Below, piece after piece: positions 1-49,312 of a DNA stretch of 49,312 nt. The DNA lies in assembly GCA_003552795.1 (NCBI GenBank), contig PUOM01000263.1, forward strand, positions 1 through 49,312. The letters run 5' to 3'. Every line of letters begins with the position of its first letter. Within the stretch, counting starts at the first letter, position 1. The translations under genes and the position numbers were made by a program. Origin of the DNA: Halomonas sp. (lineage in GTDB: Bacteria; Pseudomonadota; Gammaproteobacteria; Pseudomonadales; Halomonadaceae). Below the pieces are notes generated by a model. That model was not told the origin of the DNA and searched no databases. It saw only the letters and a program-made list of their open reading frames with translations.

Positions 1-70
1 CTGCCGTGGTTTCTCCCTCCTCATTAGCTAGTCACGGTCTTGCCGCCGCCCCATCGAGGGCGGCTTTTTT
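1..70 (+). ncRNA. 3' portion of a PrrF-like (iron/Fur-type) small RNA with its intrinsic terminator
   Basis: ctcctcattagctagtcacggtc (17-39) resembles the Pseudomonas PrrF core ctcctcatcaggctaatcacggtt as I recall it. It is followed by stem gccgccc-catcga-gggcggc (45-64) and T6 (65-70). The 5' end is cut off by the window edge. Confidence 0.7.
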
Positions 71-152
71 CGTCCCGCAGAAACAGCGATGCCCCCGGAT
101 GGGAGCATCACATGAGCGTTTTCGCTGCCCAGGCGAGGGGCGCTGGGGCAAG

Positions 153-265
153 CCGAAGAGGAGGCCCTGCGCCAGGGATGGCGTCGGTAGCGTACGGGGA
201 GGTATTCACAGCGCCTCCTCGTCGGACCGACGCTCCGGGGCTTGCCGCCAGATCAGCCCCGAGCG
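153..265. repeat. Structured intergenic REP/MITE-like element
   Basis: Inverted arms ccgaagaggaggc (153-165) and gcctcctcgtcgg (213-225) enclose hairpin cgcca-ggga-tggcg (170-183). A further hairpin lies at 231-265. Confidence 0.45.
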
Positions 266-304
266 CTTGGAACCACCGTCGACAGATTCGTCAGCACCGG
301 CAGG

Positions 305-1048
305 TCAGTCGACGCGGCGGTAGATCAGGTCCCAGACGCCGTGGCCCAGCTTCTCGCCGCGAGCCTCGAACTTGGTCAGCGGGCGGAACTCCGGCCGCGG
401 CACGTAGGGCAAGGTGTCCGCGGCGGCGGTATTGGCATAGCCCGGTGCGGCGTCCATCACCTCGGCCATCCACTCGGCGTAGGCCTCCCAGTCGGTGGCC
501 AGATGGAAGGTGCCGCCCACCTTGAGCCGGCTGCGCACCAGCTCCACGAAGGCCGGCTGCACGATGCGTCGCTTGTGATGCTTCTTCTTCGGCCAGGGGT
601 CGGGGAAGAAGAGCTGCAGGGTGTCGAGGCTGGCCTCGGGCAGGCACTCCTCGAGTACCCGCAGGGCATCTTCCCGGTAGACGCGCAGATTGGTCAGGCC
701 GCGCTTGTCGGCCTCGTCGAGCAGCTTGCCCACCCCCGGGGCGTGCACCTCGATGCCGATGAAATCGGTGTCGGGGTGGGTCTCGGCCTGCTCGATCAGC
801 GAGGCGCCCATGCCGAAACCGATCTCCACCACCCGCGGCGCACGCCGACCGAACAGGGTATCCAGATCCTGGCGCCCTTCGGCCAGGGTCAATCCCAGCC
901 TCGGCCACACCTCCTCGAGGCCACGGGTCTGGGCCTGGGTCATGCGCCCGGCACGCAGCACATAGCTCTTGATGCCGCGGCGGTGCAGGGGGGCCTGCGG
1001 GCCTTCCGGCCCGGTGGTGGCGGTATCGTCGCGGGGTTGATCACTCAT
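305..1048 (-). CDS. trmB: tRNA (guanine-N7)-methyltransferase
   Basis: EIGFGMG SAM motif, [19 protein letters not shown] and LATDW. Start set at MSDQ (1048) to avoid overlap with thiG. Confidence 0.96.
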
Positions 1049-1076
1049 CGGTCGTTGCAGCTCTCGATTGGCAGAT

Positions 1077-1874
1077 TCAGCCGTTGATGCGGCCGGCGAA
1101 GGGGGAGGAGGGATCGGCACTCTGGCGGCGCGGCATGCGTCCGGCCAGGAAGGCCTCGCGGCCCGCCTCCACGGCCTTGCGCATGGCGCTGGCCATCAGC
1201 ACCGGCTGGCGGGCATGGGCGATGGCGGTGTTCAGCAGCACACCGTCGCAGCCCAGCTCCATGGCCATGGCGGCATCGGAGGCGGTGCCGATGCCGGCGT
1301 CCACCAGTACCGGCACGCTGGCCTGCTCGATGATCAGGCGAATATTGTGAGGGTTCTGGATGCCGTGGCCGGAGCCGATCAGCGAGCCCAGCGGCATGAT
1401 GGCGCAGCAGCCCAGGCGCTCCAGCTCGCGGGCGACGATGGGGTCGTCGCTGGTATAGACCATGACGTCGAAGCCATCCTTGATCAGCGCCTCGGCGGCG
1501 GTCAGGGTCTCCACCACGTTGGGATAGAGGGTCGCGTCGTCGCCCAGCACCTCAAGCTTCACCAGCCTGTGGCCGTCAAGCAGCTCACGGGCCAGTTTGC
1601 AGGTGCGCACCGCGTCCTTGGCCGTATAGCAACCGGCGGTGTTGGGCAGCAGGGTATAGCGCTCCGGGGGCACCGCGTCGAGCAGGTTGGGCTCTCCGGC
1701 TTCCTGACCGAGGTTGGTGCGGCGCACCGCGAAGGTGACCACTTCGGCGCCGGAGGCGCTGATCGCCTCGCTGGTCTCGTCGAAGTCCTTGTACTTGCCG
1801 GTGCCGACCAGCAGGCGTGAGGAGAATTCACGCCCGGCGATGCGCAGGGGCTGGTCCTGGAAGAAGTCTGTCAT
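1077..1874 (-). CDS. thiG: Thiazole synthase
   Basis: [34 protein letters not shown] and VDAGIG motifs. Start MTDFFQ follows aagg RBS. Confidence 0.97.
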
Positions 1875-1921
1875 CGAGTCTGCCTTGTGTGGTTGTCGTC
1901 GCGGTGGCGTACGGGCGGCGC

Positions 1922-2134
1922 TCAGCCACCGCCGATGGCGTGCACCACCTCGACCCGGTCGCCCTCGGCCAGGCGAGTGGCGGCGTGTTCGCTGCGGGGC
2001 ACGATCTCCTCGTTCACCTCCACCGCGATGCGGCGGCCGGCGAGTCCCAGGGACTCGACCAGCGCGGCAATCGTCGGGGCAGGCATGAGGTCGGGCGCCA
2101 GGGTGTGCGCCTCGCCATTGAGCTGGATCTGCAT
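1922..2134 (-). CDS. thiS: Sulfur carrier protein ThiS
   Basis: 70 aa ubiquitin-like protein, MQIQLNGE...[12 protein letters not shown]...VHAIGGG with C-terminal GG. Lies upstream of thiG. Confidence 0.96.
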
Positions 2135-2322
2135 GGCGTTCTCTCTGCGCTCTGGTGGCTATCGTTGTCAGCCCCCGCCGGGGCGGCCGGCAGGGGGAAA
2201 TCGCGGCCCCATTGTAGCCGAGTCCGGCCGGCCGGGGTACGGTAGCGGCCATGACGCTCCCACCTCTCGGGGCTGAGCACCCGATATCGACCTGACCAGG
2301 ATGCCATATGAGGGAGAAAGGA

Positions 2323-2703
2323 ATGCAGGACCGAGGCTGGTGGCTGGGGGCGGCGCTGTCGGGCGCCGTGGTGGTGATGGCGGGCGCCTTCGGCGCCCAC
2401 GCCCTGGAGGAAAGCCTGGCGCCGCGTCTGGTAGCGGCCTTCGGGACCGGCGTGCGCTATCAGGCATGGCACACCCTGGCGCTGCTCGCCGTGCTGGCCT
2501 GGCGCAGCTCGCTTCCCCTCACGGGGCAGCGGCTGGCCATGGGGCTCTGGGCGGCGGGAATCGTGCTCTTCTCGGGGTCGCTCTACGCCATGGCGCTGAC
2601 CGGCATTGGCGGCCTGGGCATGATCACCCCCGTGGGCGGCGTACTGATGATCGCCGGCTGGCTGGCCCTGGCCGGCGCGGCGCTGCGCGCGCCACGCACC
2701 TGA
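2323..2703 (+). CDS. DUF423 (YgdD/TMEM256) membrane protein
   Basis: [21 protein letters not shown] and ITPVGG motifs with hydrophobic helices. Start chosen by RBS. Confidence 0.88.
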
Positions 2704-2709
2704 GCCGGC

Positions 2710-3123
2710 TCAGTCCCGGTCGGGCAGGGCGTAGGTGGCGGTGACCAAGGCCACCGGCTCTTCGTCGCCGGCGGAGAACAGCTGCACCTCGCCCACCGCC
2801 AGACGCCGCCCCAGCTTGAGGATACGCGCGATGGCGATGATGTCGCGATCGCCCCGGGGGCGGCGCAGGAAGCGGCAGTGCAGATCGCTGGTGACCGCCA
2901 TGGCCTCGGGGCCGATCTGGGCGAGGATCGCCACGTAGAGGCAGACATCGGCCAGACCCATCAGGGTCGGGCCGGAGACGCTGGCGCCGGGGCGCAGGTG
3001 GTCGTCGTCGATGGCCAGGCTCATGGTGGCGCGCATGTGGTCGACGGCCTCGATGGTCCCGATACGCTGGGGAAACACCTCGTCGAGAAAGTCCTCGATG
3101 GTGGCGGCGCTCATCACGGTCAT
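2710..3123 (-). CDS. PaaI-family hotdog thioesterase
   Basis: 137 aa, HLRPGASVSGPTLMGLAD helix motif, AVTSDLHCRFLRR, LKLGRRLAVGEV. Confidence 0.85.
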   Translation of the reverse strand: MTVMSAATIEDFLDEVFPQRIGTIEAVDHMRATMSLAIDDDHLRPGASVSGPTLMGLADVCLYVAILAQIGPEAMAVTSDLHCRFLRRPRGDRDIIAIARILKLGRRLAVGEVQLFSAGDEEPVALVTATYALPDRD

Positions 3124-3152
3124 CGGCGGGCTCCTTGCGGTGGGTGGAGAAG

Positions 3153-3170
3153 GTTGACGCTGGCGTCAAC
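3153..3170. promoter_or_regulatory. 18-bp palindromic operator, LiuR-like, upstream of the thioesterase
   Basis: GTTGACGC-TG-GCGTCAAC, about 30 bp upstream of the thioesterase start. Confidence 0.55.
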
Positions 3171-3176
3171 ATAACC

Positions 3177-3206
3177 GAAAGCGCCCCGGGCAGATACCCG
3201 GGGCGC
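3177..3206 (-). terminator. Intrinsic terminator after glcB
   Basis: 10-bp stem gcgccccggg-cagata-cccggggcgc followed by tttc on the minus strand. Confidence 0.7.
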
Positions 3207-3249
3207 CTCTGGCTGGGCGGCGTCGCCGCCCTGGCGGATCAGGCCGAGG

Positions 3250-5424
3250 TTACTTGGCCTTGTGCACGGCGCGCCAGTGGTGCAGCAGCGGCTCGGTGTA
3301 GCCGGAGGGCTGCACATGGCCCTTGAAGATCAGGTCGCTGGCGGCCTGGAAGGCGCTGGAGCCCTCGTAGTCCGCGCTCATCGGCGTGTAGGTGGGGTCG
3401 CCGGCGTTCTGCTCGTCCACCACCTTGGCCATGCGCGTCAGGGTCTCCTGAACACGCGCGGCATCCACCACGCCGTGGTGCAGCCAGTTGGCGATATGCT
3501 GGCTGGAGATGCGCAGGGTGGCGCGGTCTTCCATCAGGCCCACATCGTGGATGTCCGGCACCTTGGAGCAGCCCACGCCGTGCTCGACCCAGCGCACCAC
3601 ATAGCCGAGGATGCCCTGGCAGTTGTTGTCGAGCTCCTGCTGGATCTCCTCGTCGGACCAGCTGGCCTCGGCGACCACCGGCACGGAGAGCAGCTCATCC
3701 AGGTAGTCCGGCTCCCCCTGGGCCTCCAGCTCGCGCTGGATGCCGGTGACGTCCACCTGATGGTAGTGCAGGGCGTGCAGGGTGGCGGCGGTGGGCGACG
3801 GCACCCAGGCGGTGTTGGCACCGGCCTTGGGATGGCCGATCTTCTGCTCGAGCATGGCGGCCATCAGGTCAGGCATGGCCCACATGCCCTTGCCGATCTG
3901 GGCACGGCCGCGCAGGCCACAGGCCAGGCCGATCTGGACGTTGTTCTTCTCGTAGGCGCCGATCCAGGCGGCCCCCTTCATGTCCCCCTTGCGGAGCATC
4001 GGGCCCGCCTCCATGGCGGTGTGCATCTCGTCGCCGGTGCGGTCCAGGAAGCCGGTGTTGATGAAGACCACCCGAGAGGACGCCTCGGCGATACACGCCT
4101 TGAGGTTCACCGTGGTGCGACGCTCCTCGTCCATGATGCCCATCTTGAGCGTGTCTCGGGCCATCCCCAGCAGGTCCTCGATGCGGCCGAACAGCTCGCT
4201 GGAGAAGGCCACTTCCCCGGGACCGTGCATCTTGGGCTTGACGATGTACACGGAGCCTTCGCGGGAGTTGCGCGGCTCCCCCTCGCTCTTCTTGAGGTCG
4301 TGCAGGGCGAGCAGACCGGTGACGATGCCGTCGAGGATACCCTCGGGCAGCTCGTTGCCCTCGGCGTCGAGCACCGCCGGCGTGGTCATCAGATGACCCA
4401 CGTTGCGCACGAACATCAGCGAACGGCCCGGCAGGGTCAGCTTGCCGCCGTCCGGGGCGGTGAACCGGCGGTCGGCGTGCAGGCGGCGGGTGAGGGTCTT
4501 GCCACCCTTCTCCACCTGCTCCTCCAGATCGCCCTTCATCAGGCCCAGCCAGTTGGCGTAGACGCCCACCTTGTCCTCGGCATCCACCGCCGCCACGGAG
4601 TCCTCGCAGTCCATGATGGTGGTCAGCGCCGCCTCGACCACGACATCCTTGACGCCGGCCGGATCGGTCTTGCCGATGGGATGGCTCGGGTCGATCTGGA
4701 TCTCCAGGTGCAGACCGTGGTTGGCCAGCAGCACCGACTCGGGGCTCGCCGCCTCGCCGGTGTAGCCCACCAGCTTGCCGGCATCCTTGAGGCCGGTCTC
4801 GCGCCCGCCCTCCAGAGTCACCACCAGGTGGCCGTCACGCAGCACATACTTCACGGCATCGCGGTGGGAGCCGGTGGCCAGCGGGGCGGCGCGATCCAGC
4901 ACGCCGCGGGCGTAGGCGATCACCTTCTCGCCGCGCTTGGGGTTGAAGCTCGACCCCTTCTCGGCGCCGTCCTCCTCGGAGATGGCGTCGGTGCCGTAGA
5001 GGGCATCGTAGAGGCTGCCCCAGCGCGCATTGGCAGCGTTCAGCGCATAGCGGGCGTTGCTTACCGGCACCACCAGCTGCGGCCCGGCCTGGACGGCGAT
5101 CTCGCGGTCGACGTTGGCCGTGGTCACCGCTACCCTGGCCGGCGCCTCGCTCAGGTAGCCGATCTCCTTGAGGAAGGCACGATAGGCGGTCATGTCGCCC
5201 ACCGGGCCGGGGTGCTCGCGATGCCAGGCGTCGAGCTGCTCCTGCAGTCGCTCACGTTCGGCGAGCAGTTCGCGGTTCTTCGGGGTCAGATCGTGAAAGA
5301 GGGCATCGACGCCGGCCCAGAACGCCTCGGCATCGACGCCGGTGCCCGGAAGCGCCTGCTCGCTGATGAAACGGTCCAGTTCGGCGGCCACCTGGAGGCG
5401 GTGACGGGTGACACGTTGGGTCAT
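3250..5424 (-). CDS. glcB: Malate synthase G
   Basis: [48 protein letters not shown] and [12 protein letters not shown] motifs. 724 aa from MTQRV with gaggag RBS. Confidence 0.98.
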
Positions 5425-5510
5425 GGTGGATCTCCTCGTGCTTGGCAGCCGACGGGTCGCATGCCAGTCTGCCGATACAGGGGTGAGTGACTGCTGTGGC
5501 TGCAATTTTG

Positions 5511-5525
5511 TGGAAAATACTTCCA
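5511..5525. promoter_or_regulatory. IclR-type operator upstream of glcB
   Basis: TGGAA-aatac-TTCCA 15-bp palindrome in the AT-rich promoter region. A second copy lies upstream of iclR. Confidence 0.65.
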
Positions 5526-5658
5526 TGTGTAAACCCGCAAAGCAGCGGGTTCGCGCGCAGCTAGACCAAAAGATAAGGCAGGGCCGCCGAGCGCGCCCAC
5601 CTTTCCCTGTGCCATCGCCCGCCAGGCACCCGCTCGAGAGAGATTCATGGAGGAGACG

Positions 5659-6645
5659 ATGAGCGACTTCACTCCACTGCAGGCGCTGGGCGCGATGCGG
5701 CTGATCGAGCCGAGCGGTTCGGACGGCGACGGCGACCACCTGGCACGCTATCTGGGCCACTACGGCCTGGCACCGCTGCTGGCCAAGCACGTGGGGCTCT
5801 ACGTGGGCTATGTGGACGCCCGGGACTTCCGGCTCTGGACCCAGGTCTGGAGCCCCGATGAACCGGTGGGTACCGCCTTCGTGGTGCACGGCTACTTCGA
5901 CCACCTGGGGCTCTACCGCCACCTGCTGGAGCGCCTGCTGGAGCGGCGCTGGCGGGTCGTGCTCTGGGACCTCCCCGGCCACGGCCTCTCCAGCGGGCCG
6001 CGCGCCTCCATTGACGATTTCGACGACTACGGCGGCTGCCTGCAAGCCCTGCAGACCCATCTCGAGGCGGAGGGGCTCGCCCCGCGCCCCTGGCTCGGCG
6101 TCGGCCAGAGCACCGGCGCGGCGATACTCGCCACCGACGCCCTGACCCGCGGCGACGATGGCCACTGGGCCGGCCTGGCGCTGCTGGCCCCCCTGGTGCG
6201 CCCCTGGGGCTGGAGCCAGAGAAGCTGGCTGCACCTGCTGGCCGGGCCCTTCGTGCGCTCCATTCCGCGCAAGTTCCGCGCCAACTCCACCGACGCCGAG
6301 TTCGCCGCCTTCCTGCGCGAGCGGGACCCCCTGCAGGCGGATCGCGTCGAGGTCGGCTGGGTCAGTGCCATGCGCCGCTGGATGCCGAGACTGCTCGCCC
6401 TGCCCCCTACTCCGGTGAAGACACTGATCCTCCAGGGCGAGCAGGACCTGACGGTGGACTGGGAGTGGAACCTCGCCGTGCTGGCGCGCAAGTTCCCCAA
6501 TGCCGAGATTCACCGCCATCCCGAAGCGCGCCACCACCTGGTCAACGAGGCCGAGCCGATCCGCCGGGCGCTCTTCGATGCCCTGGATCGCTTTATCGAC
6601 GACCTGGCACCCGCCGCCGCCCACCTCGAGATCGAACGCCCATGA
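5659..6645 (+). CDS. Alpha/beta hydrolase (Hydrolase_4/lysophospholipase-like)
   Basis: [15 protein letters not shown], nucleophile elbow GQSTG, QGEQD and ARHHL. ggaggag RBS precedes ATG 5659. Confidence 0.9.
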
Positions 6646-7127
6646 ACGCTAGCCGCCCGCTCCTGCTGCTGCTTGCCCCGCTGCTGGCCGGCTGCGCTGC
6701 CGCCCCGGAGCGCCCCGAGACCCTGCGCCAGGCGCTCTTCAACCTGGGCGAGCGCGCGGCCATCCGCGTGACCGAAGCCCCCGCCCTGCCACGCCCGCCC
6801 GGCGACCAGGTGCTGCTGCTGGTTACCCCGGAGGTCAACGGCGAACTCGGTATCGGCCAGGAACGTTTCCGCGAAAGCCTGACTCGGGCACTGCTGGCGG
6901 TAGGCGACGGTCCCCAGGTGCTCGACTGGAGCGACAGCATGGGCGAAGGAGGAGGTGACAACCAGTGGCGACTGGAGAGCCGCCTGATGGCCGACGGGCC
7001 ACGCCTGCGGCTCTCGGACCGGGAGCTGCTTCCCTACCGCCTGACCCTGATACTGCGACGCCCCGACGGCGAGTCGGTGATGTGGGAAGAGAGCCTGCAG
7101 GGCGCCCTGGATGCCACGGCGCTATAG
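6642..7127 (+). CDS. Hypothetical lipoprotein
   Basis: [18 protein letters not shown] lipobox. ATGA overlap with the hydrolase stop. Confidence 0.8.
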
Positions 7128-7145
7128 CGCCCCTCCTTCCACTCC

Positions 7146-7187
7146 TCACCACTCACCCCTCACCATTCACCACTCACCACTCACCCC
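7146..7187. repeat. Heptamer tandem repeat (TCACCMY x6)
   Basis: tcaccac tcacccc tcaccat tcaccac tcaccac tcacccc between convergent genes. Confidence 0.85.
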
Positions 7188-8683
7188 TTAAGCAGCCGAT
7201 CCAGCTGCCGATAGCCGATCGCCTCGATCAGCTGCTCCCGGGCGGGCGTCGGTTCCCCTGTCAGGTCGGCCAGGGTCAGCGCCACCCGCAGCACCCGATG
7301 ATAGGCCCGGGCCGAGAGCCTGAGTCGCTCCAGCACGCCTGCCAGCCAGGCACGATCGGCGGCGGCCAGGCCGCAGGCCGCCTCCAGCTCCCGTCCGGCC
7401 AGGTGCGCATTGAGCGCCCCGCGCGCCAGCTGGCGTTCACGAGCCGCCACCACCCGCCGGCGCACGACCGCCGAGGACTCCCCGGCCGTTGCCGAGGTGA
7501 GCTGTTCCGGCGGCAATGCCGGAACCTCCACCTGCAGATCGATGCGGTCGAGCAGGGGTCCCGAGAGGCGCGCCTGGTAGCGCTGAATCTGCGCCGCGGT
7601 GCAGTGGCAGGGCTGGCGGGGATCGCCCAGATGGCCGCAGGGACAGGGATTCATGGCCGCCACCAGCTGGAAACGCGCCGGAAAGCGGCGCTGATGGCTG
7701 GCTCGGGCGATATGGATCTGGCCCGACTCCATGGGCTCGCGCATCACCTCCAGCACCTGTCGCGAGAACTCCGGCAGCTCGTCCAGGAACAGCACCCCGT
7801 GGTGGGCCAGCGAGATCTCTCCCGGGCGGGGCTTCGAGCCACCGCCCACCAGGGCCACCGCGCTGGCGGTATGGTGCGGCGCCCGGAAGGGCCGCTGCCC
7901 CCACTCGGCGGCCAGCGGCAATCCGCTGACAGAGCGCACCGCCGCTACCTCCAGGGCCTCTTCGTCGGTAAGCGACGGCAGGATACCGGGCAGGCGGCTG
8001 GCCAGCATGGTCTTGCCGGTGCCGGGCGGGCCGGCGAAAAGCAGGTTGTGGGATCCCGCCGCGGCCACCTCCAGGGCGCGGCGCGCCTGGTGCTGGCCGC
8101 GCACCTCGGCCAGGTCAGGCAGCGGCGTGGCCGCCTCGGGCGGACGCGAAAGCCGGTGCGGCGTGATCGGCGCCTGCCCCAGCAGGTGAGCGACCACCTC
8201 GAGCAGATGGTCGGCGGGCAGCACCTCGAGATCACCGGAGAGTGCCGCCTCATCGGCATTGGCGCGGGGCACGATCAGCCGTCGACCGGCACGGCGAGTG
8301 GCCAGGGCCAGGGGCAGCACGCCGCTGATCGGGCGCAAGCCGCCGTCCAGGGCCAGCTCGCCGACGCTCTCGGTCTCCTCGAGAGCCCTCGGGGGCAGCT
8401 GCCCCGAGGCCAGCAGCAGGCCCAGGGCGATGGGCAGATCGAAGCGTCCGCCCTCCTTGGGCAGGTCGGCGGGTGCCAGATTGAGGGTGATACGACGCAG
8501 AGGGTAGTCGAAGCCGGCGTGGGTCAGGGCGCTGCGCACCCGCTCACGGCTCTCCTTCACCGCCGCCTCGGGCAGGCCCACCAGGGTCATCCCCGGCAGG
8601 CCGTTGGCCAGGTGGACTTCCACCTGCACCTCGGGGGCCTCGAGGCCGAGGCCTGCGCGGGTATGGACGATCGCCAGCGTCAT
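7181..8683 (-). CDS. comM: YifB/ComM Mg-chelatase-like AAA+ ATPase
   Basis: VGLPEAAVKESRERV, NLAPADLPKEG, Walker A GPPGTGKT, RPFRAPHH, LFLDE, NPCPCG...CHC and LLDRID. Confidence 0.93.
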   Translation of the reverse strand: MTLAIVHTRAGLGLEAPEVQVEVHLANGLPGMTLVGLPEAAVKESRERVRSALTHAGFDYPLRRITLNLAPADLPKEGGRFDLPIALGLLLASGQLPPRALEETESVGELALDGGLRPISGVLPLALATRRAGRRLIVPRANADEAALSGDLEVLPADHLLEVVAHLLGQAPITPHRLSRPPEAATPLPDLAEVRGQHQARRALEVAAAGSHNLLFAGPPGTGKTMLASRLPGILPSLTDEEALEVAAVRSVSGLPLAAEWGQRPFRAPHHTASAVALVGGGSKPRPGEISLAHHGVLFLDELPEFSRQVLEVMREPMESGQIHIARASHQRRFPARFQLVAAMNPCPCGHLGDPRQPCHCTAAQIQRYQARLSGPLLDRIDLQVEVPALPPEQLTSATAGESSAVVRRRVVAARERQLARGALNAHLAGRELEAACGLAAADRAWLAGVLERLRLSARAYHRVLRVALTLADLTGEPTPAREQLIEAIGYRQLDRLLKG

Positions 8684-8749
8684 GGGCGCTCCCTCGCCTG
8701 GAGTCTTGCCCTCAGGCTAGCCCAGGGGGCGCCGCCCTGCCCGGGAGGC

Positions 8750-9091
8750 TCAGCGGCCGGCTTCGCCGCCGCCGGCGTCCTCCTCGGGCGGAGGCGTCTC
8801 ACTGCCGGCGTCCGCTGCCGGAGCGTCCGTCGGCGCTTCGCCGGTGCGCTCCTCCAGCAGCGTCTCCAGCGCCGCCACCTGCTGCTCCAGCGCCTCCACT
8901 CGGGCCCGGGTCCGCTGCAGGACATCCATCAGGATGTCGAAGTCCTCCCGTGACACCAGCTCCAGGCGGTCGAAGGCGCCCTTCACCACCTGCTGAATGC
9001 CCTTCTGCACCTCCTCGGGCGCCTGGGAGGCGCCCTGAAGGCGCTCGCCGATCTGCTGGGCCAATTGGCCGATACGGTCATGGCTCACCAT
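8750..9091 (-). CDS. ubiK: UbiK/BMFP-family accessory factor
   Basis: LELVSREDFDI...LQRTRARVEALEQQVAALE coiled coil. Sits in the conserved position between yifB and glnK. Confidence 0.85.
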   Translation of the reverse strand: MVSHDRIGQLAQQIGERLQGASQAPEEVQKGIQQVVKGAFDRLELVSREDFDILMDVLQRTRARVEALEQQVAALETLLEERTGEAPTDAPAADAGSETPPPEEDAGGGEAGR

Positions 9092-9163
9092 GGGTCTCTC
9101 CTCAACGTGTGGAATGCCGATGACAGGATACCCATGGCCCGCCAGGAACGCATGCCCTGACGC

Positions 9164-9212
9164 CGCGCCAGGATGGCGCGCCTGCACCCGCACCCGGCAC
9201 CAGCACGGTGCA
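9164..9212. promoter_or_regulatory. Tandem NtrC binding sites
   Basis: cGCGCC-aggat-GGCGCG (9164-9180) and gGCACC-agcac-GGTGCA (9196-9212), 32 bp apart. NtrC consensus is TGCACC-N5-GGTGCA. Confidence 0.75.
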
Positions 9213-9292
9213 ACCGCCCGCCTGTCTCTCCGATCGCCCACGGACAAGCGACCGTGACATCAGATTAATTGCTTGTTTTATCTCTAATTTAA

Positions 9293-9709
<417 letters not shown>

Positions 9710-9736
9710 TCATCCCATGCCCCTGGAGAAACAGCC

Positions 9737-10987: not shown

Positions 10988-11473
<486 letters not shown>

Positions 11474-11474
11474 C

Positions 11475-11579
11475 AGTTGGAAGCTGGAAGCTGGAAGACA
11501 GCCTGAATGACACCGCCTCCGTGGCCAGACCACGGAGGCGGATTTTCTTCCAGCTTCAGGCTTCCAGGCGCGAAGCGCC
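11475..11579. repeat. Heptamer-flanked hairpin element between convergent PII and fpr
   Basis: agttgga agctgga agctgga; then a 12-bp stem ccgcctccgtgg-ccaga-ccacggaggcgg (11513-11541); then inverted heptamers cttccag cttcagg cttccag; then ggcgc-gaa-gcgcc. Confidence 0.7.
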
Positions 11580-11611
11580 GCTCTTCAAACTCCCGGCGCA
11601 GCCGGGGCGGG

Positions 11612-12388: not shown

Positions 12389-12549
12389 GCCGGCTCCTTG
12401 TGGTCCCGCAAGGGGTTATATTCTCAAAAGGAATGAATGACAGGATAATATTTACATTGAATTCTAAGAGATGTCGCGTTATCTGTTAAATGGATTGTAT
12501 GGATAACCCTTATTCATGACTTTGATATAGATCACCGGAGCCCTGCGCC

Positions 12550-37701: not shown

Positions 37702-37839
37702 CCCGCCCCGGCTGCGCCGGGAGTTTGAAGAGCGGCGCTTCGCGCCTGGAAGCCTGAAGCTGGAAGAAAATCCGCCTCCGTGGTCTGGCCACGGAGGCGG
37801 TGTCATTCAGGCTGTCTTCCAGCTTCCAGCTTCCAACTG

Positions 37840-38325
<486 letters not shown>

Positions 38326-39576: not shown

Positions 39577-39603
39577 GGCTGTTTCTCCAGGGGCATGGGA
39601 TGA

Positions 39604-40020
<417 letters not shown>

Positions 40021-40221
40021 TTAAATTAGAGATAAAACAAGCAATTAATCTGATGTCACGGTCGCTTGTCCGTGGGCGATCGGAGAGACAGGCGGGCGGT
40101 TGCACCGTGCTGGTGCCGGGTGCGGGTGCAGGCGCGCCATCCTGGCGCGGCGTCAGGGCATGCGTTCCTGGCGGGCCATGGGTATCCTGTCATCGGCATT
40201 CCACACGTTGAGGAGAGACCC

Positions 40222-40563
40222 ATGGTGAGCCATGACCGTATCGGCCAATTGGCCCAGCAGATCGGCGAGCGCCTTCAGGGCGCCTCCCAGGCGCCCGAGG
40301 AGGTGCAGAAGGGCATTCAGCAGGTGGTGAAGGGCGCCTTCGACCGCCTGGAGCTGGTGTCACGGGAGGACTTCGACATCCTGATGGATGTCCTGCAGCG
40401 GACCCGGGCCCGAGTGGAGGCGCTGGAGCAGCAGGTGGCGGCGCTGGAGACGCTGCTGGAGGAGCGCACCGGCGAAGCGCCGACGGACGCTCCGGCAGCG
40501 GACGCCGGCAGTGAGACGCCTCCGCCCGAGGAGGACGCCGGCGGCGGCGAAGCCGGCCGCTGA
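40222..40563 (+). CDS. ubiK: UbiK-family protein (mirror copy)
   Basis: Reverse complement of 8750-9091. Confidence 0.83.
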   Translation: MVSHDRIGQLAQQIGERLQGASQAPEEVQKGIQQVVKGAFDRLELVSREDFDILMDVLQRTRARVEALEQQVAALETLLEERTGEAPTDAPAADAGSETPPPEEDAGGGEAGR

Positions 40564-40629
40564 GCCTCCCGGGCAGGGCGGCGCCCCCTGGGCTAGCCTG
40601 AGGGCAAGACTCCAGGCGAGGGAGCGCCC

Positions 40630-42132
40630 ATGACGCTGGCGATCGTCCATACCCGCGCAGGCCTCGGCCTCGAGGCCCCCGAGGTGCAGGTGGAAGTCCA
40701 CCTGGCCAACGGCCTGCCGGGGATGACCCTGGTGGGCCTGCCCGAGGCGGCGGTGAAGGAGAGCCGTGAGCGGGTGCGCAGCGCCCTGACCCACGCCGGC
40801 TTCGACTACCCTCTGCGTCGTATCACCCTCAATCTGGCACCCGCCGACCTGCCCAAGGAGGGCGGACGCTTCGATCTGCCCATCGCCCTGGGCCTGCTGC
40901 TGGCCTCGGGGCAGCTGCCCCCGAGGGCTCTCGAGGAGACCGAGAGCGTCGGCGAGCTGGCCCTGGACGGCGGCTTGCGCCCGATCAGCGGCGTGCTGCC
41001 CCTGGCCCTGGCCACTCGCCGTGCCGGTCGACGGCTGATCGTGCCCCGCGCCAATGCCGATGAGGCGGCACTCTCCGGTGATCTCGAGGTGCTGCCCGCC
41101 GACCATCTGCTCGAGGTGGTCGCTCACCTGCTGGGGCAGGCGCCGATCACGCCGCACCGGCTTTCGCGTCCGCCCGAGGCGGCCACGCCGCTGCCTGACC
41201 TGGCCGAGGTGCGCGGCCAGCACCAGGCGCGCCGCGCCCTGGAGGTGGCCGCGGCGGGATCCCACAACCTGCTTTTCGCCGGCCCGCCCGGCACCGGCAA
41301 GACCATGCTGGCCAGCCGCCTGCCCGGTATCCTGCCGTCGCTTACCGACGAAGAGGCCCTGGAGGTAGCGGCGGTGCGCTCTGTCAGCGGATTGCCGCTG
41401 GCCGCCGAGTGGGGGCAGCGGCCCTTCCGGGCGCCGCACCATACCGCCAGCGCGGTGGCCCTGGTGGGCGGTGGCTCGAAGCCCCGCCCGGGAGAGATCT
41501 CGCTGGCCCACCACGGGGTGCTGTTCCTGGACGAGCTGCCGGAGTTCTCGCGACAGGTGCTGGAGGTGATGCGCGAGCCCATGGAGTCGGGCCAGATCCA
41601 TATCGCCCGAGCCAGCCATCAGCGCCGCTTTCCGGCGCGTTTCCAGCTGGTGGCGGCCATGAATCCCTGTCCCTGCGGCCATCTGGGCGATCCCCGCCAG
41701 CCCTGCCACTGCACCGCGGCGCAGATTCAGCGCTACCAGGCGCGCCTCTCGGGACCCCTGCTCGACCGCATCGATCTGCAGGTGGAGGTTCCGGCATTGC
41801 CGCCGGAACAGCTCACCTCGGCAACGGCCGGGGAGTCCTCGGCGGTCGTGCGCCGGCGGGTGGTGGCGGCTCGTGAACGCCAGCTGGCGCGCGGGGCGCT
41901 CAATGCGCACCTGGCCGGACGGGAGCTGGAGGCGGCCTGCGGCCTGGCCGCCGCCGATCGTGCCTGGCTGGCAGGCGTGCTGGAGCGACTCAGGCTCTCG
42001 GCCCGGGCCTATCATCGGGTGCTGCGGGTGGCGCTGACCCTGGCCGACCTGACAGGGGAACCGACGCCCGCCCGGGAGCAGCTGATCGAGGCGATCGGCT
42101 ATCGGCAGCTGGATCGGCTGCTTAAGGGGTGA
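40630..42132 (+). CDS. comM: YifB/ComM ATPase (mirror copy)
   Basis: Reverse complement of 7181-8683. Confidence 0.92.
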   Translation: MTLAIVHTRAGLGLEAPEVQVEVHLANGLPGMTLVGLPEAAVKESRERVRSALTHAGFDYPLRRITLNLAPADLPKEGGRFDLPIALGLLLASGQLPPRALEETESVGELALDGGLRPISGVLPLALATRRAGRRLIVPRANADEAALSGDLEVLPADHLLEVVAHLLGQAPITPHRLSRPPEAATPLPDLAEVRGQHQARRALEVAAAGSHNLLFAGPPGTGKTMLASRLPGILPSLTDEEALEVAAVRSVSGLPLAAEWGQRPFRAPHHTASAVALVGGGSKPRPGEISLAHHGVLFLDELPEFSRQVLEVMREPMESGQIHIARASHQRRFPARFQLVAAMNPCPCGHLGDPRQPCHCTAAQIQRYQARLSGPLLDRIDLQVEVPALPPEQLTSATAGESSAVVRRRVVAARERQLARGALNAHLAGRELEAACGLAAADRAWLAGVLERLRLSARAYHRVLRVALTLADLTGEPTPAREQLIEAIGYRQLDRLLKG

Positions 42133-42185
42133 GTGGTGAGTGGTGAATGGTGAGGGGTGAGTGGTGAGGAGTGGAAGGAGGGGCG

Positions 42186-42671
42186 CTATAGCGCCGTGGC
42201 ATCCAGGGCGCCCTGCAGGCTCTCTTCCCACATCACCGACTCGCCGTCGGGGCGTCGCAGTATCAGGGTCAGGCGGTAGGGAAGCAGCTCCCGGTCCGAG
42301 AGCCGCAGGCGTGGCCCGTCGGCCATCAGGCGGCTCTCCAGTCGCCACTGGTTGTCACCTCCTCCTTCGCCCATGCTGTCGCTCCAGTCGAGCACCTGGG
42401 GACCGTCGCCTACCGCCAGCAGTGCCCGAGTCAGGCTTTCGCGGAAACGTTCCTGGCCGATACCGAGTTCGCCGTTGACCTCCGGGGTAACCAGCAGCAG
42501 CACCTGGTCGCCGGGCGGGCGTGGCAGGGCGGGGGCTTCGGTCACGCGGATGGCCGCGCGCTCGCCCAGGTTGAAGAGCGCCTGGCGCAGGGTCTCGGGG
42601 CGCTCCGGGGCGGCAGCGCAGCCGGCCAGCAGCGGGGCAAGCAGCAGCAGGAGCGGGCGGCTAGCGTTCAT
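42186..42671 (-). CDS. Hypothetical lipoprotein (mirror copy)
   Basis: Reverse complement of 6642-7127. Confidence 0.78.
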
Positions 42672-43654
42672 GGGCGTTCGATCTCGAGGTGGGCGGCGGC
42701 GGGTGCCAGGTCGTCGATAAAGCGATCCAGGGCATCGAAGAGCGCCCGGCGGATCGGCTCGGCCTCGTTGACCAGGTGGTGGCGCGCTTCGGGATGGCGG
42801 TGAATCTCGGCATTGGGGAACTTGCGCGCCAGCACGGCGAGGTTCCACTCCCAGTCCACCGTCAGGTCCTGCTCGCCCTGGAGGATCAGTGTCTTCACCG
42901 GAGTAGGGGGCAGGGCGAGCAGTCTCGGCATCCAGCGGCGCATGGCACTGACCCAGCCGACCTCGACGCGATCCGCCTGCAGGGGGTCCCGCTCGCGCAG
43001 GAAGGCGGCGAACTCGGCGTCGGTGGAGTTGGCGCGGAACTTGCGCGGAATGGAGCGCACGAAGGGCCCGGCCAGCAGGTGCAGCCAGCTTCTCTGGCTC
43101 CAGCCCCAGGGGCGCACCAGGGGGGCCAGCAGCGCCAGGCCGGCCCAGTGGCCATCGTCGCCGCGGGTCAGGGCGTCGGTGGCGAGTATCGCCGCGCCGG
43201 TGCTCTGGCCGACGCCGAGCCAGGGGCGCGGGGCGAGCCCCTCCGCCTCGAGATGGGTCTGCAGGGCTTGCAGGCAGCCGCCGTAGTCGTCGAAATCGTC
43301 AATGGAGGCGCGCGGCCCGCTGGAGAGGCCGTGGCCGGGGAGGTCCCAGAGCACGACCCGCCAGCGCCGCTCCAGCAGGCGCTCCAGCAGGTGGCGGTAG
43401 AGCCCCAGGTGGTCGAAGTAGCCGTGCACCACGAAGGCGGTACCCACCGGTTCATCGGGGCTCCAGACCTGGGTCCAGAGCCGGAAGTCCCGGGCGTCCA
43501 CATAGCCCACGTAGAGCCCCACGTGCTTGGCCAGCAGCGGTGCCAGGCCGTAGTGGCCCAGATAGCGTGCCAGGTGGTCGCCGTCGCCGTCCGAACCGCT
43601 CGGCTCGATCAGCCGCATCGCGCCCAGCGCCTGCAGTGGAGTGAAGTCGCTCAT
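42668..43654 (-). CDS. Alpha/beta hydrolase (mirror copy)
   Basis: Reverse complement of 5659-6645. Confidence 0.88.
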
Positions 43655-43888
43655 CGTCTCCTCCATGAATCTCTCTCGAGCGGGTGCCTGGCGGGCGATG
43701 GCACAGGGAAAGGTGGGCGCGCTCGGCGGCCCTGCCTTATCTTTTGGTCTAGCTGCGCGCGAACCCGCTGCTTTGCGGGTTTACACATGGAAGTATTTTC
43801 CACAAAATTGCAGCCACAGCAGTCACTCACCCCTGTATCGGCAGACTGGCATGCGACCCGTCGGCTGCCAAGCACGAGGAGATCCACC

Positions 43889-46063
43889 ATGACCCAACGT
43901 GTCACCCGTCACCGCCTCCAGGTGGCCGCCGAACTGGACCGTTTCATCAGCGAGCAGGCGCTTCCGGGCACCGGCGTCGATGCCGAGGCGTTCTGGGCCG
44001 GCGTCGATGCCCTCTTTCACGATCTGACCCCGAAGAACCGCGAACTGCTCGCCGAACGTGAGCGACTGCAGGAGCAGCTCGACGCCTGGCATCGCGAGCA
44101 CCCCGGCCCGGTGGGCGACATGACCGCCTATCGTGCCTTCCTCAAGGAGATCGGCTACCTGAGCGAGGCGCCGGCCAGGGTAGCGGTGACCACGGCCAAC
44201 GTCGACCGCGAGATCGCCGTCCAGGCCGGGCCGCAGCTGGTGGTGCCGGTAAGCAACGCCCGCTATGCGCTGAACGCTGCCAATGCGCGCTGGGGCAGCC
44301 TCTACGATGCCCTCTACGGCACCGACGCCATCTCCGAGGAGGACGGCGCCGAGAAGGGGTCGAGCTTCAACCCCAAGCGCGGCGAGAAGGTGATCGCCTA
44401 CGCCCGCGGCGTGCTGGATCGCGCCGCCCCGCTGGCCACCGGCTCCCACCGCGATGCCGTGAAGTATGTGCTGCGTGACGGCCACCTGGTGGTGACTCTG
44501 GAGGGCGGGCGCGAGACCGGCCTCAAGGATGCCGGCAAGCTGGTGGGCTACACCGGCGAGGCGGCGAGCCCCGAGTCGGTGCTGCTGGCCAACCACGGTC
44601 TGCACCTGGAGATCCAGATCGACCCGAGCCATCCCATCGGCAAGACCGATCCGGCCGGCGTCAAGGATGTCGTGGTCGAGGCGGCGCTGACCACCATCAT
44701 GGACTGCGAGGACTCCGTGGCGGCGGTGGATGCCGAGGACAAGGTGGGCGTCTACGCCAACTGGCTGGGCCTGATGAAGGGCGATCTGGAGGAGCAGGTG
44801 GAGAAGGGTGGCAAGACCCTCACCCGCCGCCTGCACGCCGACCGCCGGTTCACCGCCCCGGACGGCGGCAAGCTGACCCTGCCGGGCCGTTCGCTGATGT
44901 TCGTGCGCAACGTGGGTCATCTGATGACCACGCCGGCGGTGCTCGACGCCGAGGGCAACGAGCTGCCCGAGGGTATCCTCGACGGCATCGTCACCGGTCT
45001 GCTCGCCCTGCACGACCTCAAGAAGAGCGAGGGGGAGCCGCGCAACTCCCGCGAAGGCTCCGTGTACATCGTCAAGCCCAAGATGCACGGTCCCGGGGAA
45101 GTGGCCTTCTCCAGCGAGCTGTTCGGCCGCATCGAGGACCTGCTGGGGATGGCCCGAGACACGCTCAAGATGGGCATCATGGACGAGGAGCGTCGCACCA
45201 CGGTGAACCTCAAGGCGTGTATCGCCGAGGCGTCCTCTCGGGTGGTCTTCATCAACACCGGCTTCCTGGACCGCACCGGCGACGAGATGCACACCGCCAT
45301 GGAGGCGGGCCCGATGCTCCGCAAGGGGGACATGAAGGGGGCCGCCTGGATCGGCGCCTACGAGAAGAACAACGTCCAGATCGGCCTGGCCTGTGGCCTG
45401 CGCGGCCGTGCCCAGATCGGCAAGGGCATGTGGGCCATGCCTGACCTGATGGCCGCCATGCTCGAGCAGAAGATCGGCCATCCCAAGGCCGGTGCCAACA
45501 CCGCCTGGGTGCCGTCGCCCACCGCCGCCACCCTGCACGCCCTGCACTACCATCAGGTGGACGTCACCGGCATCCAGCGCGAGCTGGAGGCCCAGGGGGA
45601 GCCGGACTACCTGGATGAGCTGCTCTCCGTGCCGGTGGTCGCCGAGGCCAGCTGGTCCGACGAGGAGATCCAGCAGGAGCTCGACAACAACTGCCAGGGC
45701 ATCCTCGGCTATGTGGTGCGCTGGGTCGAGCACGGCGTGGGCTGCTCCAAGGTGCCGGACATCCACGATGTGGGCCTGATGGAAGACCGCGCCACCCTGC
45801 GCATCTCCAGCCAGCATATCGCCAACTGGCTGCACCACGGCGTGGTGGATGCCGCGCGTGTTCAGGAGACCCTGACGCGCATGGCCAAGGTGGTGGACGA
45901 GCAGAACGCCGGCGACCCCACCTACACGCCGATGAGCGCGGACTACGAGGGCTCCAGCGCCTTCCAGGCCGCCAGCGACCTGATCTTCAAGGGCCATGTG
46001 CAGCCCTCCGGCTACACCGAGCCGCTGCTGCACCACTGGCGCGCCGTGCACAAGGCCAAGTAA
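43889..46063 (+). CDS. glcB: Malate synthase G (mirror copy)
   Basis: Reverse complement of 3250-5424. Confidence 0.96.
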
Positions 46064-46189
46064 CCTCGGCCTGATCCGCCAGGGCGGCGACGCCGCCCAG
46101 CCAGAGGCGCCCCGGGTATCTGCCCGGGGCGCTTTCGGTTATGTTGACGCCAGCGTCAACCTTCTCCACCCACCGCAAGGAGCCCGCCG

Positions 46190-46603
46190 ATGACCGTGAT
46201 GAGCGCCGCCACCATCGAGGACTTTCTCGACGAGGTGTTTCCCCAGCGTATCGGGACCATCGAGGCCGTCGACCACATGCGCGCCACCATGAGCCTGGCC
46301 ATCGACGACGACCACCTGCGCCCCGGCGCCAGCGTCTCCGGCCCGACCCTGATGGGTCTGGCCGATGTCTGCCTCTACGTGGCGATCCTCGCCCAGATCG
46401 GCCCCGAGGCCATGGCGGTCACCAGCGATCTGCACTGCCGCTTCCTGCGCCGCCCCCGGGGCGATCGCGACATCATCGCCATCGCGCGTATCCTCAAGCT
46501 GGGGCGGCGTCTGGCGGTGGGCGAGGTGCAGCTGTTCTCCGCCGGCGACGAAGAGCCGGTGGCCTTGGTCACCGCCACCTACGCCCTGCCCGACCGGGAC
46601 TGA
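46190..46603 (+). CDS. PaaI-family thioesterase (mirror copy)
   Basis: Reverse complement of 2710-3123. Confidence 0.83.
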   Translation: MTVMSAATIEDFLDEVFPQRIGTIEAVDHMRATMSLAIDDDHLRPGASVSGPTLMGLADVCLYVAILAQIGPEAMAVTSDLHCRFLRRPRGDRDIIAIARILKLGRRLAVGEVQLFSAGDEEPVALVTATYALPDRD

Positions 46604-46609
46604 GCCGGC

Positions 46610-46990
46610 TCAGGTGCGTGGCGCGCGCAGCGCCGCGCCGGCCAGGGCCAGCCAGCCGGCGATCATCAGTACGCCGCCCACGGGGGTGATCATGCCCAGG
46701 CCGCCAATGCCGGTCAGCGCCATGGCGTAGAGCGACCCCGAGAAGAGCACGATTCCCGCCGCCCAGAGCCCCATGGCCAGCCGCTGCCCCGTGAGGGGAA
46801 GCGAGCTGCGCCAGGCCAGCACGGCGAGCAGCGCCAGGGTGTGCCATGCCTGATAGCGCACGCCGGTCCCGAAGGCCGCTACCAGACGCGGCGCCAGGCT
46901 TTCCTCCAGGGCGTGGGCGCCGAAGGCGCCCGCCATCACCACCACGGCGCCCGACAGCGCCGCCCCCAGCCACCAGCCTCGGTCCTGCAT
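46610..46990 (-). CDS. DUF423 membrane protein (mirror copy)
   Basis: Reverse complement of 2323-2703. Confidence 0.86.
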
Positions 46991-47178
46991 TCCTTTCTCC
47001 CTCATATGGCATCCTGGTCAGGTCGATATCGGGTGCTCAGCCCCGAGAGGTGGGAGCGTCATGGCCGCTACCGTACCCCGGCCGGCCGGACTCGGCTACA
47101 ATGGGGCCGCGATTTCCCCCTGCCGGCCGCCCCGGCGGGGGCTGACAACGATAGCCACCAGAGCGCAGAGAGAACGCC

Positions 47179-47391
47179 ATGCAGATCCAGCTCAATGGCG
47201 AGGCGCACACCCTGGCGCCCGACCTCATGCCTGCCCCGACGATTGCCGCGCTGGTCGAGTCCCTGGGACTCGCCGGCCGCCGCATCGCGGTGGAGGTGAA
47301 CGAGGAGATCGTGCCCCGCAGCGAACACGCCGCCACTCGCCTGGCCGAGGGCGACCGGGTCGAGGTGGTGCACGCCATCGGCGGTGGCTGA
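47179..47391 (+). CDS. thiS: ThiS (mirror copy)
   Basis: Reverse complement of 1922-2134. Confidence 0.95.
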
Positions 47392-47438
47392 GCGCCGCCC
47401 GTACGCCACCGCGACGACAACCACACAAGGCAGACTCG

Positions 47439-48236
47439 ATGACAGACTTCTTCCAGGACCAGCCCCTGCGCATCGCCGGGCGTGAATTCTCCTCACGCCT
47501 GCTGGTCGGCACCGGCAAGTACAAGGACTTCGACGAGACCAGCGAGGCGATCAGCGCCTCCGGCGCCGAAGTGGTCACCTTCGCGGTGCGCCGCACCAAC
47601 CTCGGTCAGGAAGCCGGAGAGCCCAACCTGCTCGACGCGGTGCCCCCGGAGCGCTATACCCTGCTGCCCAACACCGCCGGTTGCTATACGGCCAAGGACG
47701 CGGTGCGCACCTGCAAACTGGCCCGTGAGCTGCTTGACGGCCACAGGCTGGTGAAGCTTGAGGTGCTGGGCGACGACGCGACCCTCTATCCCAACGTGGT
47801 GGAGACCCTGACCGCCGCCGAGGCGCTGATCAAGGATGGCTTCGACGTCATGGTCTATACCAGCGACGACCCCATCGTCGCCCGCGAGCTGGAGCGCCTG
47901 GGCTGCTGCGCCATCATGCCGCTGGGCTCGCTGATCGGCTCCGGCCACGGCATCCAGAACCCTCACAATATTCGCCTGATCATCGAGCAGGCCAGCGTGC
48001 CGGTACTGGTGGACGCCGGCATCGGCACCGCCTCCGATGCCGCCATGGCCATGGAGCTGGGCTGCGACGGTGTGCTGCTGAACACCGCCATCGCCCATGC
48101 CCGCCAGCCGGTGCTGATGGCCAGCGCCATGCGCAAGGCCGTGGAGGCGGGCCGCGAGGCCTTCCTGGCCGGACGCATGCCGCGCCGCCAGAGTGCCGAT
48201 CCCTCCTCCCCCTTCGCCGGCCGCATCAACGGCTGA
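47439..48236 (+). CDS. thiG: Thiazole synthase (mirror copy)
   Basis: Reverse complement of 1077-1874. Confidence 0.95.
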
Positions 48237-48264
48237 ATCTGCCAATCGAGAGCTGCAACGACCG

Positions 48265-49008
48265 ATGAGTGATCAACCCCGCGACGATACCGCCACCACC
48301 GGGCCGGAAGGCCCGCAGGCCCCCCTGCACCGCCGCGGCATCAAGAGCTATGTGCTGCGTGCCGGGCGCATGACCCAGGCCCAGACCCGTGGCCTCGAGG
48401 AGGTGTGGCCGAGGCTGGGATTGACCCTGGCCGAAGGGCGCCAGGATCTGGATACCCTGTTCGGTCGGCGTGCGCCGCGGGTGGTGGAGATCGGTTTCGG
48501 CATGGGCGCCTCGCTGATCGAGCAGGCCGAGACCCACCCCGACACCGATTTCATCGGCATCGAGGTGCACGCCCCGGGGGTGGGCAAGCTGCTCGACGAG
48601 GCCGACAAGCGCGGCCTGACCAATCTGCGCGTCTACCGGGAAGATGCCCTGCGGGTACTCGAGGAGTGCCTGCCCGAGGCCAGCCTCGACACCCTGCAGC
48701 TCTTCTTCCCCGACCCCTGGCCGAAGAAGAAGCATCACAAGCGACGCATCGTGCAGCCGGCCTTCGTGGAGCTGGTGCGCAGCCGGCTCAAGGTGGGCGG
48801 CACCTTCCATCTGGCCACCGACTGGGAGGCCTACGCCGAGTGGATGGCCGAGGTGATGGACGCCGCACCGGGCTATGCCAATACCGCCGCCGCGGACACC
48901 TTGCCCTACGTGCCGCGGCCGGAGTTCCGCCCGCTGACCAAGTTCGAGGCTCGCGGCGAGAAGCTGGGCCACGGCGTCTGGGACCTGATCTACCGCCGCG
49001 TCGACTGA
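48265..49008 (+). CDS. trmB: tRNA (guanine-N7)-methyltransferase (mirror copy)
   Basis: Reverse complement of 305-1048. Confidence 0.95.
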
Positions 49009-49242
49009 CCTGCCGGTGCTGACGAATCTGTCGACGGTGGTTCCAAGCGCTCGGGGCTGATCTGGCGGCAAGCCCCGGAGCGTCGGTCCGACGAGGAGGC
49101 GCTGTGAATACCTCCCCGTACGCTACCGACGCCATCCCTGGCGCAGGGCCTCCTCTTCGGCTTGCCCCAGCGCCCCTCGCCTGGGCAGCGAAAACGCTCA
49201 TGTGATGCTCCCATCCGGGGGCATCGCTGTTTCTGCGGGACG

Positions 49243-49312
49243 AAAAAAGCCGCCCTCGATGGGGCGGCGGCAAGACCGTGACTAGCTAATGAGGAGGGAG
49301 AAACCACGGCAG
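49243..49312 (-). ncRNA. PrrF-like sRNA 3' end (mirror copy)
   Basis: Reverse complement of 1-70. Confidence 0.65.

What the first reader, a model, noticed from the sequence alone, without database searches (positions are those of the whole stretch)
1..49312. Entire window is a spacer-less 24,656-bp x 2 palindrome of core housekeeping genes
Seen: the second half is the reverse complement of the first. Both ends match, the axis is at 24656|24657, and every ORF has a mirror with an identical translation; I spot-checked rather than compared every base. Established: long perfect palindromes are unstable in bacteria (cruciform extrusion, SbcCD cleavage). Palindromic contigs arise from fold-back or missed-adapter long reads, MDA chimeras, or de Bruijn assemblers turning back at a palindromic k-mer. 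They also arise from covalently closed hairpin telomeres and fold-back inverted duplications. Inference: an artefact is most likely, because no divergence is visible, single-copy essential genes (dxs, ispA, hemE, ribA) are duplicated, no protelomerase, transposase or recombinase is present, and the window is exactly symmetric.
Basis: partly seen in the sequence, partly recalled or inferred. Interest (0 to 1): 0.8.

Follow-up and report, generated by a model that had tools for sequence, protein, structure and literature searches.

The report
Assembly fold-back at a short hairpin
This 49-kb contig is an exact mirror image of itself, most likely because the assembly program turned back at a short natural DNA hairpin between two ordinary genes, so the duplicated half is very likely not in the living bacterium.

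Summary
The window is one whole contig (C176) of a 336-contig draft genome and equals its own reverse complement at 49,312 of 49,312 positions. It is almost certainly an assembly fold-back. (1) The axis sits on a short natural palindrome just after paaX. In a sample of a near-identical population, contigs leave the mirror at 24672/24673 into unique DNA, which gives a natural palindrome of about 34 bp. (2) In 20 of 22 relatives with paaX, the next DNA is the paaY end of another contig of this same assembly (C197). All 22 have one paaX match; relatives carry short hairpins there. (3) Both window ends overlap one contig (C327) by 121 nt, the assembly's graph overlap. (4) The same assembly folded back a second time (C299), and there the true neighbour C154 starts inside the hairpin. 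(5) No protelomerase was found. A toy de Bruijn graph reproduces the artefact. The source sample's raw reads were not examined, so the depth test is open. The scan has noted such fold-backs before on other DNA. Real content: 24.7 kb of ordinary single-copy genes. Interest is very low.

The parts
1..24656 (+). Real arm: ordinary chromosomal genes, colinear and single-copy in relatives
   Evidence: Colinear with closed relative G012 at 87-89% identity; one location per segment in 4 of 4 relatives; NCBIfam names
24674..49312 (+). Mirror arm, inferred to be an assembly artefact (reverse complement of 1-24639)
   Evidence: 0 mismatches; contigs of runs X1/X2 leave the mirror after 24672/24673; relatives continue into the C197 homolog
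24640..24673 (.). Natural spacer-less GC-rich palindrome of about 34 bp; the turn-back point. Length is taken from a near-identical population, not from the source strain
   Evidence: Loose ends at 24672/24673; folds at -22.9 kcal/mol as DNA, z -7.3; related hairpins after paaX in relatives, 40 bp spacer-less in G118 and 28 bp in G012
23669..24637 (+). paaX, phenylacetate catabolism repressor; last real gene before the axis (ATG at 23669 read from the sequence; the ORF runs from a TTG at 23561)
   Evidence: TIGR02277 313 bits, cut-off 264.55; sequence
1..121 (+). 121-nt graph overlap with contig C327 (mirrored at 49192-49312)
   Evidence: Exact 121-nt match; C327 follows the arm in G012
15085..19837 (.). 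hemE, ribA, dxs, ispA: core genes that appear twice only because of the mirror
   Evidence: NCBIfam above cut-off; single location in relatives

Best explanation
The contig is an exact self-reverse-complement, most likely because a short-read de Bruijn assembler turned back at a natural hairpin of about 34 bp between the convergent paaX and paaY genes and walked the same 24.7 kb again on the other strand. Shown: exact symmetry; 121-nt end overlaps; the palindrome's natural exit in a near-identical population; the paaX-paaY join in relatives; a second fold-back in the same assembly. Inferred mechanism: a spacer-less palindrome longer than k gives the graph a self-complementary edge. If reads crossing this very stable hairpin are scarce, the true exit is lost or pruned and the only path left is the U-turn. 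The mirrored contig is then carried up to the final k (about 121), either as a contig fed forward from a small k (my preference, roughly 60%) or on library-made fold-back reads (roughly 40%). The true order is likely C327 (reversed), window 1 to about 24673, a few unassembled bases, C197 (reversed).
For: 0 mismatches over 49,312 nt and the window is a whole contig. There are 38 oriented exact end overlaps of 121 nt (19 junctions); both ends of C176 meet the same end of C327. In closed relative G012 the order is C197, arm, C327, once. 22 of 116 genus genomes matched paaX, each once; in 20 of these 22 the best G000 match of the downstream 1.5 kb is C197's end, which encodes PaaY and PaaN. In G118 the bases just after a natural 40-bp palindrome align to the first bases of reversed C197. 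Runs X1 and X2 (one sample) each hold two small contigs leaving the mirror at 24672/24673 (or the mirror-equivalent 24640/24641) with 34-35 unique letters; one of them starts at 24633, outside the palindrome, and so bridges it. C299 ends in a 102-nt perfect hairpin, and reversed C154 starts at the second base after that axis and matches for 15 nt before diverging; C154 follows C299 in 3 of the 4 relative loci examined, and the fourth locus ends earlier. Toy graph on G118's natural locus: with the exit removed, k of 21, 33 or 39 gives a perfect palindrome of twice the arm length, and it persists at k=121 when fed forward. No PF16684 match in G000.
Against: The source sample's reads were not examined, so single-copy depth is unshown. 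X1 differs from the window at 6 of 6,302 nt, so it is not the source strain, and X1 and X2 are one sample. The loose-end motif from X1/X2 was not found in G000, and reversed C197 does not overlap the axis, so the exact junction is not assembled. Runs X5 and X9 show neither exit nor mirror; their contigs stop at 24655 and 24656. A palindrome alone does not force a fold-back: 26 of 28 perfect palindromes of 22 bp or more in G000 are internal, including one of 46 bp. The loss of the exit is therefore an inferred step.
Confidence: 0.97

Rival explanations
1. The axis is a real covalently closed hairpin end (telomere) of a linearised chromosome. Assemblers walk round such ends and give the same mirror contig.
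For: The graph shape (C327 at both ends of a self-complementary contig) is what a hairpin-capped end would also give. Contigs of X5 and X9 stop at the apex. G000 is only 86.7% complete.
Against: No protelomerase family match in G000, while the control search hit 1 of 14 control genomes. A near-identical population runs through the site. C197's end carries no half of the palindrome, which a resolved telomere pair would be expected to show (recalled). In 20 of 22 relatives the site is internal.
Confidence: 0.01
2. A real, very recent fold-back inverted duplication of at least 24.7 kb in the source strain, seeded by the short hairpin.
For: Short inverted repeats can seed fold-back duplications (recalled). 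A very recent event would show no divergence. The source strain's own reads were not seen.
Against: No spacer and no distal junction: both ends lead into the same contig, so the duplication would have to extend through C327 as well. The expected neighbour C197 is in the same bin and ends just past the homologous hairpin. The same assembly makes the same error at C299. Spacer-less palindromes of this size are unstable in bacteria (established knowledge, recalled).
Confidence: 0.015
3. Still an artefact, but made before assembly by whole-genome amplification (MDA) chimeras or long-read fold-back, independent of the hairpin.
For: Palindromic contigs were removed as likely artefacts in a single-cell genome study (bioRxiv 10.1101/2023.06.06.543983, one passage read). 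The library type of the source is unknown.
Against: The turn falls exactly on the centre of a conserved natural palindrome, twice in this assembly, and has no spacer. Fixed 121-nt overlaps point to short reads.
Confidence: 0.005

Closest known systems
Palindromic (self-reverse-complement) contigs and unsafe unitigs of de Bruijn assemblers (PMC9528984, passages read; bioRxiv 10.1101/2023.06.06.543983, one passage read)
   Same: The first half is mirrored exactly in the second. The first paper reports that unitigs can be misassembled where coverage is imperfect, and that SPAdes and MEGAHIT output long palindromes unsplit in its test.
   Different: The passages read do not describe a short natural hairpin seeding a whole-contig mirror; that step rests. 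The assembler used here is not identified.
Library-made chimeric reads at inverted repeats and palindromes (PMC10908179, abstract and outline only)
   Same: Natural palindromes give rise to chimeric reads, a possible source of support for the U-turn at large k.
   Different: That study concerns human capture libraries and variant calls. No chimeric read was seen here, because only contigs were available.
Hairpin telomeres made by protelomerases (N15 TelN, ResT/TelK family PF16684; details recalled)
   Same: An assembler walking round a closed end gives an identical mirror contig.
   Different: No PF16684 match in G000, the cargo is core chromosomal genes, and the site is internal in relatives and in a near-identical population.
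GC-rich intergenic hairpins between convergent genes (terminator-like or REP-like; label recalled)
   Same: A stable stem between convergent stop codons, kept in relatives with changes on both arms.
   Different: The pattern scan found no terminator-like site at G118's copy (0 found), so terminator function is only inferred from position.

Membership tests
Assembly fold-back contig | Whole contig equals its reverse complement exactly | tested here: met
   0 of 49,312 mismatches; whole contig C176
Assembly fold-back contig | Assembly has de Bruijn signatures and both ends meet the same graph node | tested here: met
   19 junctions with 121-nt overlaps; both ends overlap C327
Assembly fold-back contig | Axis centred on a short natural palindrome | tested here: met
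   Exit at 24672/24673 in X1/X2; perfect arms of 12 nt or more after paaX in 11 of 22 relatives, spacer-less in 3
Assembly fold-back contig | True continuation exists elsewhere in the assembly | tested here: met
   C197 end is the downstream neighbour in 20 of 22 relatives; no direct overlap in G000
Assembly fold-back contig | Single-copy read depth on the collapsed arm in the source sample | not testable with these tools
   The 8 run-layings made (7 distinct runs) were contigs, and no run was shown to be the source
Protelomerase hairpin telomere | Telomere resolvase gene in the genome | tested here: not met
   0 matches to PF16684 in G000, 86.7% complete
Protelomerase hairpin telomere | DNA ends at the axis | tested here: not met
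   Contigs of a near-identical population cross into unique DNA; source strain itself not seen
Biological fold-back inverted duplication | A distal junction where the duplicated arm rejoins different DNA | tested here: not met
   Both ends join the same end of C327
Biological fold-back inverted duplication | Twice the read depth over the duplicated DNA | not testable with these tools
   No raw reads of the source sample were laid
Intrinsic terminator (the short hairpin itself) | GC-rich stem followed by a T run | tested here: inconclusive
   Stem is stable; scan found 0 terminator-like sites at G118's copy; the downstream side is unassembled in G000

The most novel reading that the evidence does not exclude
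The source strain's chromosome really folds back at the paaX-paaY hairpin, as a protelomerase-free closed hairpin end or a spacer-less inverted duplication of more than 24 kb of core genes that is abundant enough to dominate the assembly.
Probability: 0.02. Interest if true: 0.75.

Novelty: not a real feature. Interest (0 to 1): 0.04.

Why it matters
It matters only for data quality. The draft genome carries 24,656 nt twice (0.86% of its length), so dxs, ispA, hemE, ribA and the neighbouring genes appear duplicated and could inflate copy-number or contamination estimates. The contig should be cut just after the axis and scaffolded to C197; C299's mirrored tail should be trimmed too. If the fold-back were real, a stable giant palindrome of essential genes with no protelomerase would be surprising, but the evidence leaves that about 2%.

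Tried and rejected
A scan of metagenome contigs with a 32-nt pattern from the end of paaX found 0 matches; the tool notes that records of near genomes may be left out, so this says nothing. The loose-end motif of X1/X2 was not found in G000. Zero depth beyond 24691 in 4 of 4 runs is not counted as evidence, because a collapsed mirror arm would be laid on the first arm anyway. Contig depths at the hairpin (X1: arm 35.7, small pieces 7.3-22.2; X2: arm 30.6, pieces 6.8-16.2) fit under-representation of the hairpin, but contig depth is no copy number, so this is a hint only. Rfam found 0 families in 1-24800. None of the 25 ORFs scanned hit a transposase, recombinase or resolvase family at E 1e-10; these were 25 chosen from 98 listed ORFs, not all of them. 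The assembler could not be named from the 121-nt overlap alone. Three paper searches found general descriptions; no claim of absence from print is made. Supplements were not read. No earlier notes exist on this genome.

Full report
Observation. The window equals its reverse complement at all 49,312 positions, with the axis between 24656 and 24657 and no spacer. It is the whole of contig C176 in G000, a draft of 2,865,674 nt in 336 contigs, N50 12,064, 86.7% complete. It is the longest contig only because it is doubled, and the only whole-contig palindrome. The arm has 68.7% GC against 67.5% for the genome. It encodes ordinary genes: trmB, malate synthase G, a YifB ATPase, two P-II genes around an ammonium transporter, hemE, ribA, dxs, ispA, phosphoglycerate dehydrogenase and paaX (25 of 98 ORFs scanned). 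Near-identical DNA occurs in salt-lake and soda-lake metagenomes.

How the assembly was made. Exact end-to-end overlaps between contigs peak sharply at 121 nt: 38 oriented overlaps, that is 19 junctions. This is the signature of a de Bruijn assembly with a final k of about 121 (inference; the program is not identified). Both ends of C176 overlap the same end of C327 by 121 nt. In graph terms C176 is a loop that leaves one node and returns to it on the other strand.

What really follows paaX. In the closed relative G012 the order is C197, then the arm, then C327, each once, at 87-89% identity. Across the 19.7 kb searched, 4 of 4 relatives have one location per segment, apart from one enoyl-CoA hydratase paralog in G012. 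Of 116 other genomes of the genus, 22 matched paaX at E 1e-50 or better, each once. In 20 of these 22 the best G000 match to the next 1.5 kb is the right end of C197; the other two hit C30 weakly. That end of C197 encodes PaaN and PaaY, so paaX and paaY converge on a short spacer. In 11 of the 22 the spacer holds an inverted repeat with perfect arms of 12-20 nt; three are spacer-less (24, 28 and 40 bp). G118's 40-bp copy differs from the window's axis by changes on both arms, and the bases right after it align to the first bases of reversed C197. The unassembled gap in G000 is therefore probably only a few bases (inference). Reversed C197 does not itself overlap the axis.

Evidence from a near-identical population. 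Run X1 covers 18361-24662 with one contig at 6 differences in 6,302 nt. At the axis, X1 and X2 (two runs of one sample) each hold two small contigs that leave the mirror after 24672 or 24673 (or the mirror-equivalent places) with 34-35 unique letters. One of them begins at 24633, outside the palindrome, has one differing letter, and so bridges the site in a single piece. This sets the natural palindrome at 24640-24673, 34 bp, which folds at -22.9 kcal/mol as DNA (z -7.3). Limits: this is one sample and not the source strain. Runs X5 and X9 stop at 24655 and 24656 and show neither exit nor mirror. All runs laid were contigs, so there is no valid depth test.

A second case inside the same assembly. 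C299 ends in a 102-nt perfect hairpin. In 3 of 4 relative loci C299's DNA is followed by C154's; the fourth locus ends earlier. Reversed C154 starts at the second base after C299's axis, matches 15 nt and then diverges. The natural palindrome there is about 32 bp and the remaining mirrored tail is false. The same error thus occurred twice, and in this second case the proof lies within G000.

Mechanism. In a toy doubled de Bruijn graph built on G118's natural locus, k of 21, 33 or 39 makes a branch at the 40-bp palindrome when the exit is covered. When the exit is removed, the same k gives a perfect palindrome of exactly twice the arm (4,954 nt). At k of 41 or more there is no turn-back, unless the small-k contig is fed forward, in which case the mirror persists at k=121. 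This shows the route is sufficient, not that it was taken. The alternative is that fold-back reads made in library preparation supported the turn directly (PMC10908179, abstract only). A palindrome is not enough by itself: 26 of 28 perfect palindromes of 22 bp or more in G000 were assembled through, including one of 46 bp. Loss of the exit, likely through poor coverage across the hairpin, is the inferred step. PMC9528984 (passages) reports misassembled unitigs at imperfect coverage, and unsplit palindromes in SPAdes and MEGAHIT output. A single-cell genome study removed exact palindromic contigs as likely artefacts (bioRxiv 10.1101/2023.06.06.543983, one passage).

Rivals. A hairpin telomere would give the same graph, but G000 has no PF16684 match (genome incomplete), the site is internal in relatives and in X1/X2, and C197 carries no half-site. 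A real inverted duplication lacks a spacer and a distal junction, and would leave the position of C197 unexplained. Together these keep about 2-3%.

The hairpin itself is probably an ordinary intergenic stem between convergent genes. Terminator function is inferred from position only; the scan found no terminator-like site at G118's copy, and Rfam had no match in the arm.

Earlier scan notes describe similar fold-backs on other DNA, two at phage telomeres and one centred on a repeat hairpin. They are unchecked and were not used as support.

Verdict. The giant palindrome is not a real feature (confidence 0.97); interest 0.04.

Noticed in passing
L023:2964-3065 (G000 C299 end) and C154 end: Second fold-back in the same assembly: a 102-nt terminal hairpin. 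The true neighbour C154 starts inside it, so the natural palindrome is about 32 bp.
   Followed up: yes
window 133-265: Dispersed intergenic repeat of about 50-130 nt with matches on 11 other G000 contigs at 68-92% identity and a similar element in relative G044. No Rfam match. Possibly a REP-like or miniature mobile element.
   Followed up: partly
window 11475-11615: Intergenic element with 7-nt repeat units on both sides of a stem, with related copies on many G000 contigs. Several contigs end in 7-nt-periodic overlaps (C16, C111, C164, C167, C235, C242, C272, C322), probably such repeats.
   Followed up: partly
window 7140-7188: Tandem array of a 7-nt unit, about 6 copies, next to the end of the YifB gene.
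   Followed up: no
window 9371-9709 and 11135-11473: Two P-II paralogs, 79.8% identical in DNA, flank an ammonium transporter gene; the pair is also present in G012.
   Followed up: no
window 24593-24637: PaaX runs about 15 codons further here than in G012, G009, G004, G008 and G014, which stop right after the conserved end. G118 also has an extension.
   Followed up: no
window 24655-24656: Contigs of two low-depth runs (X5, X9) stop at the hairpin apex, perhaps because reads fail there.
   Followed up: no
G000 contig C91 (5,815 nt): Both ends share an inverted 121-nt stretch: another loop on one graph node, with a non-palindromic interior.
   Followed up: no
L022:2843-5633: Relative G012 has about 2.8 kb between trmB and the C327 homolog that G000 lacks; a variable site at the window's outer end.
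   Followed up: no
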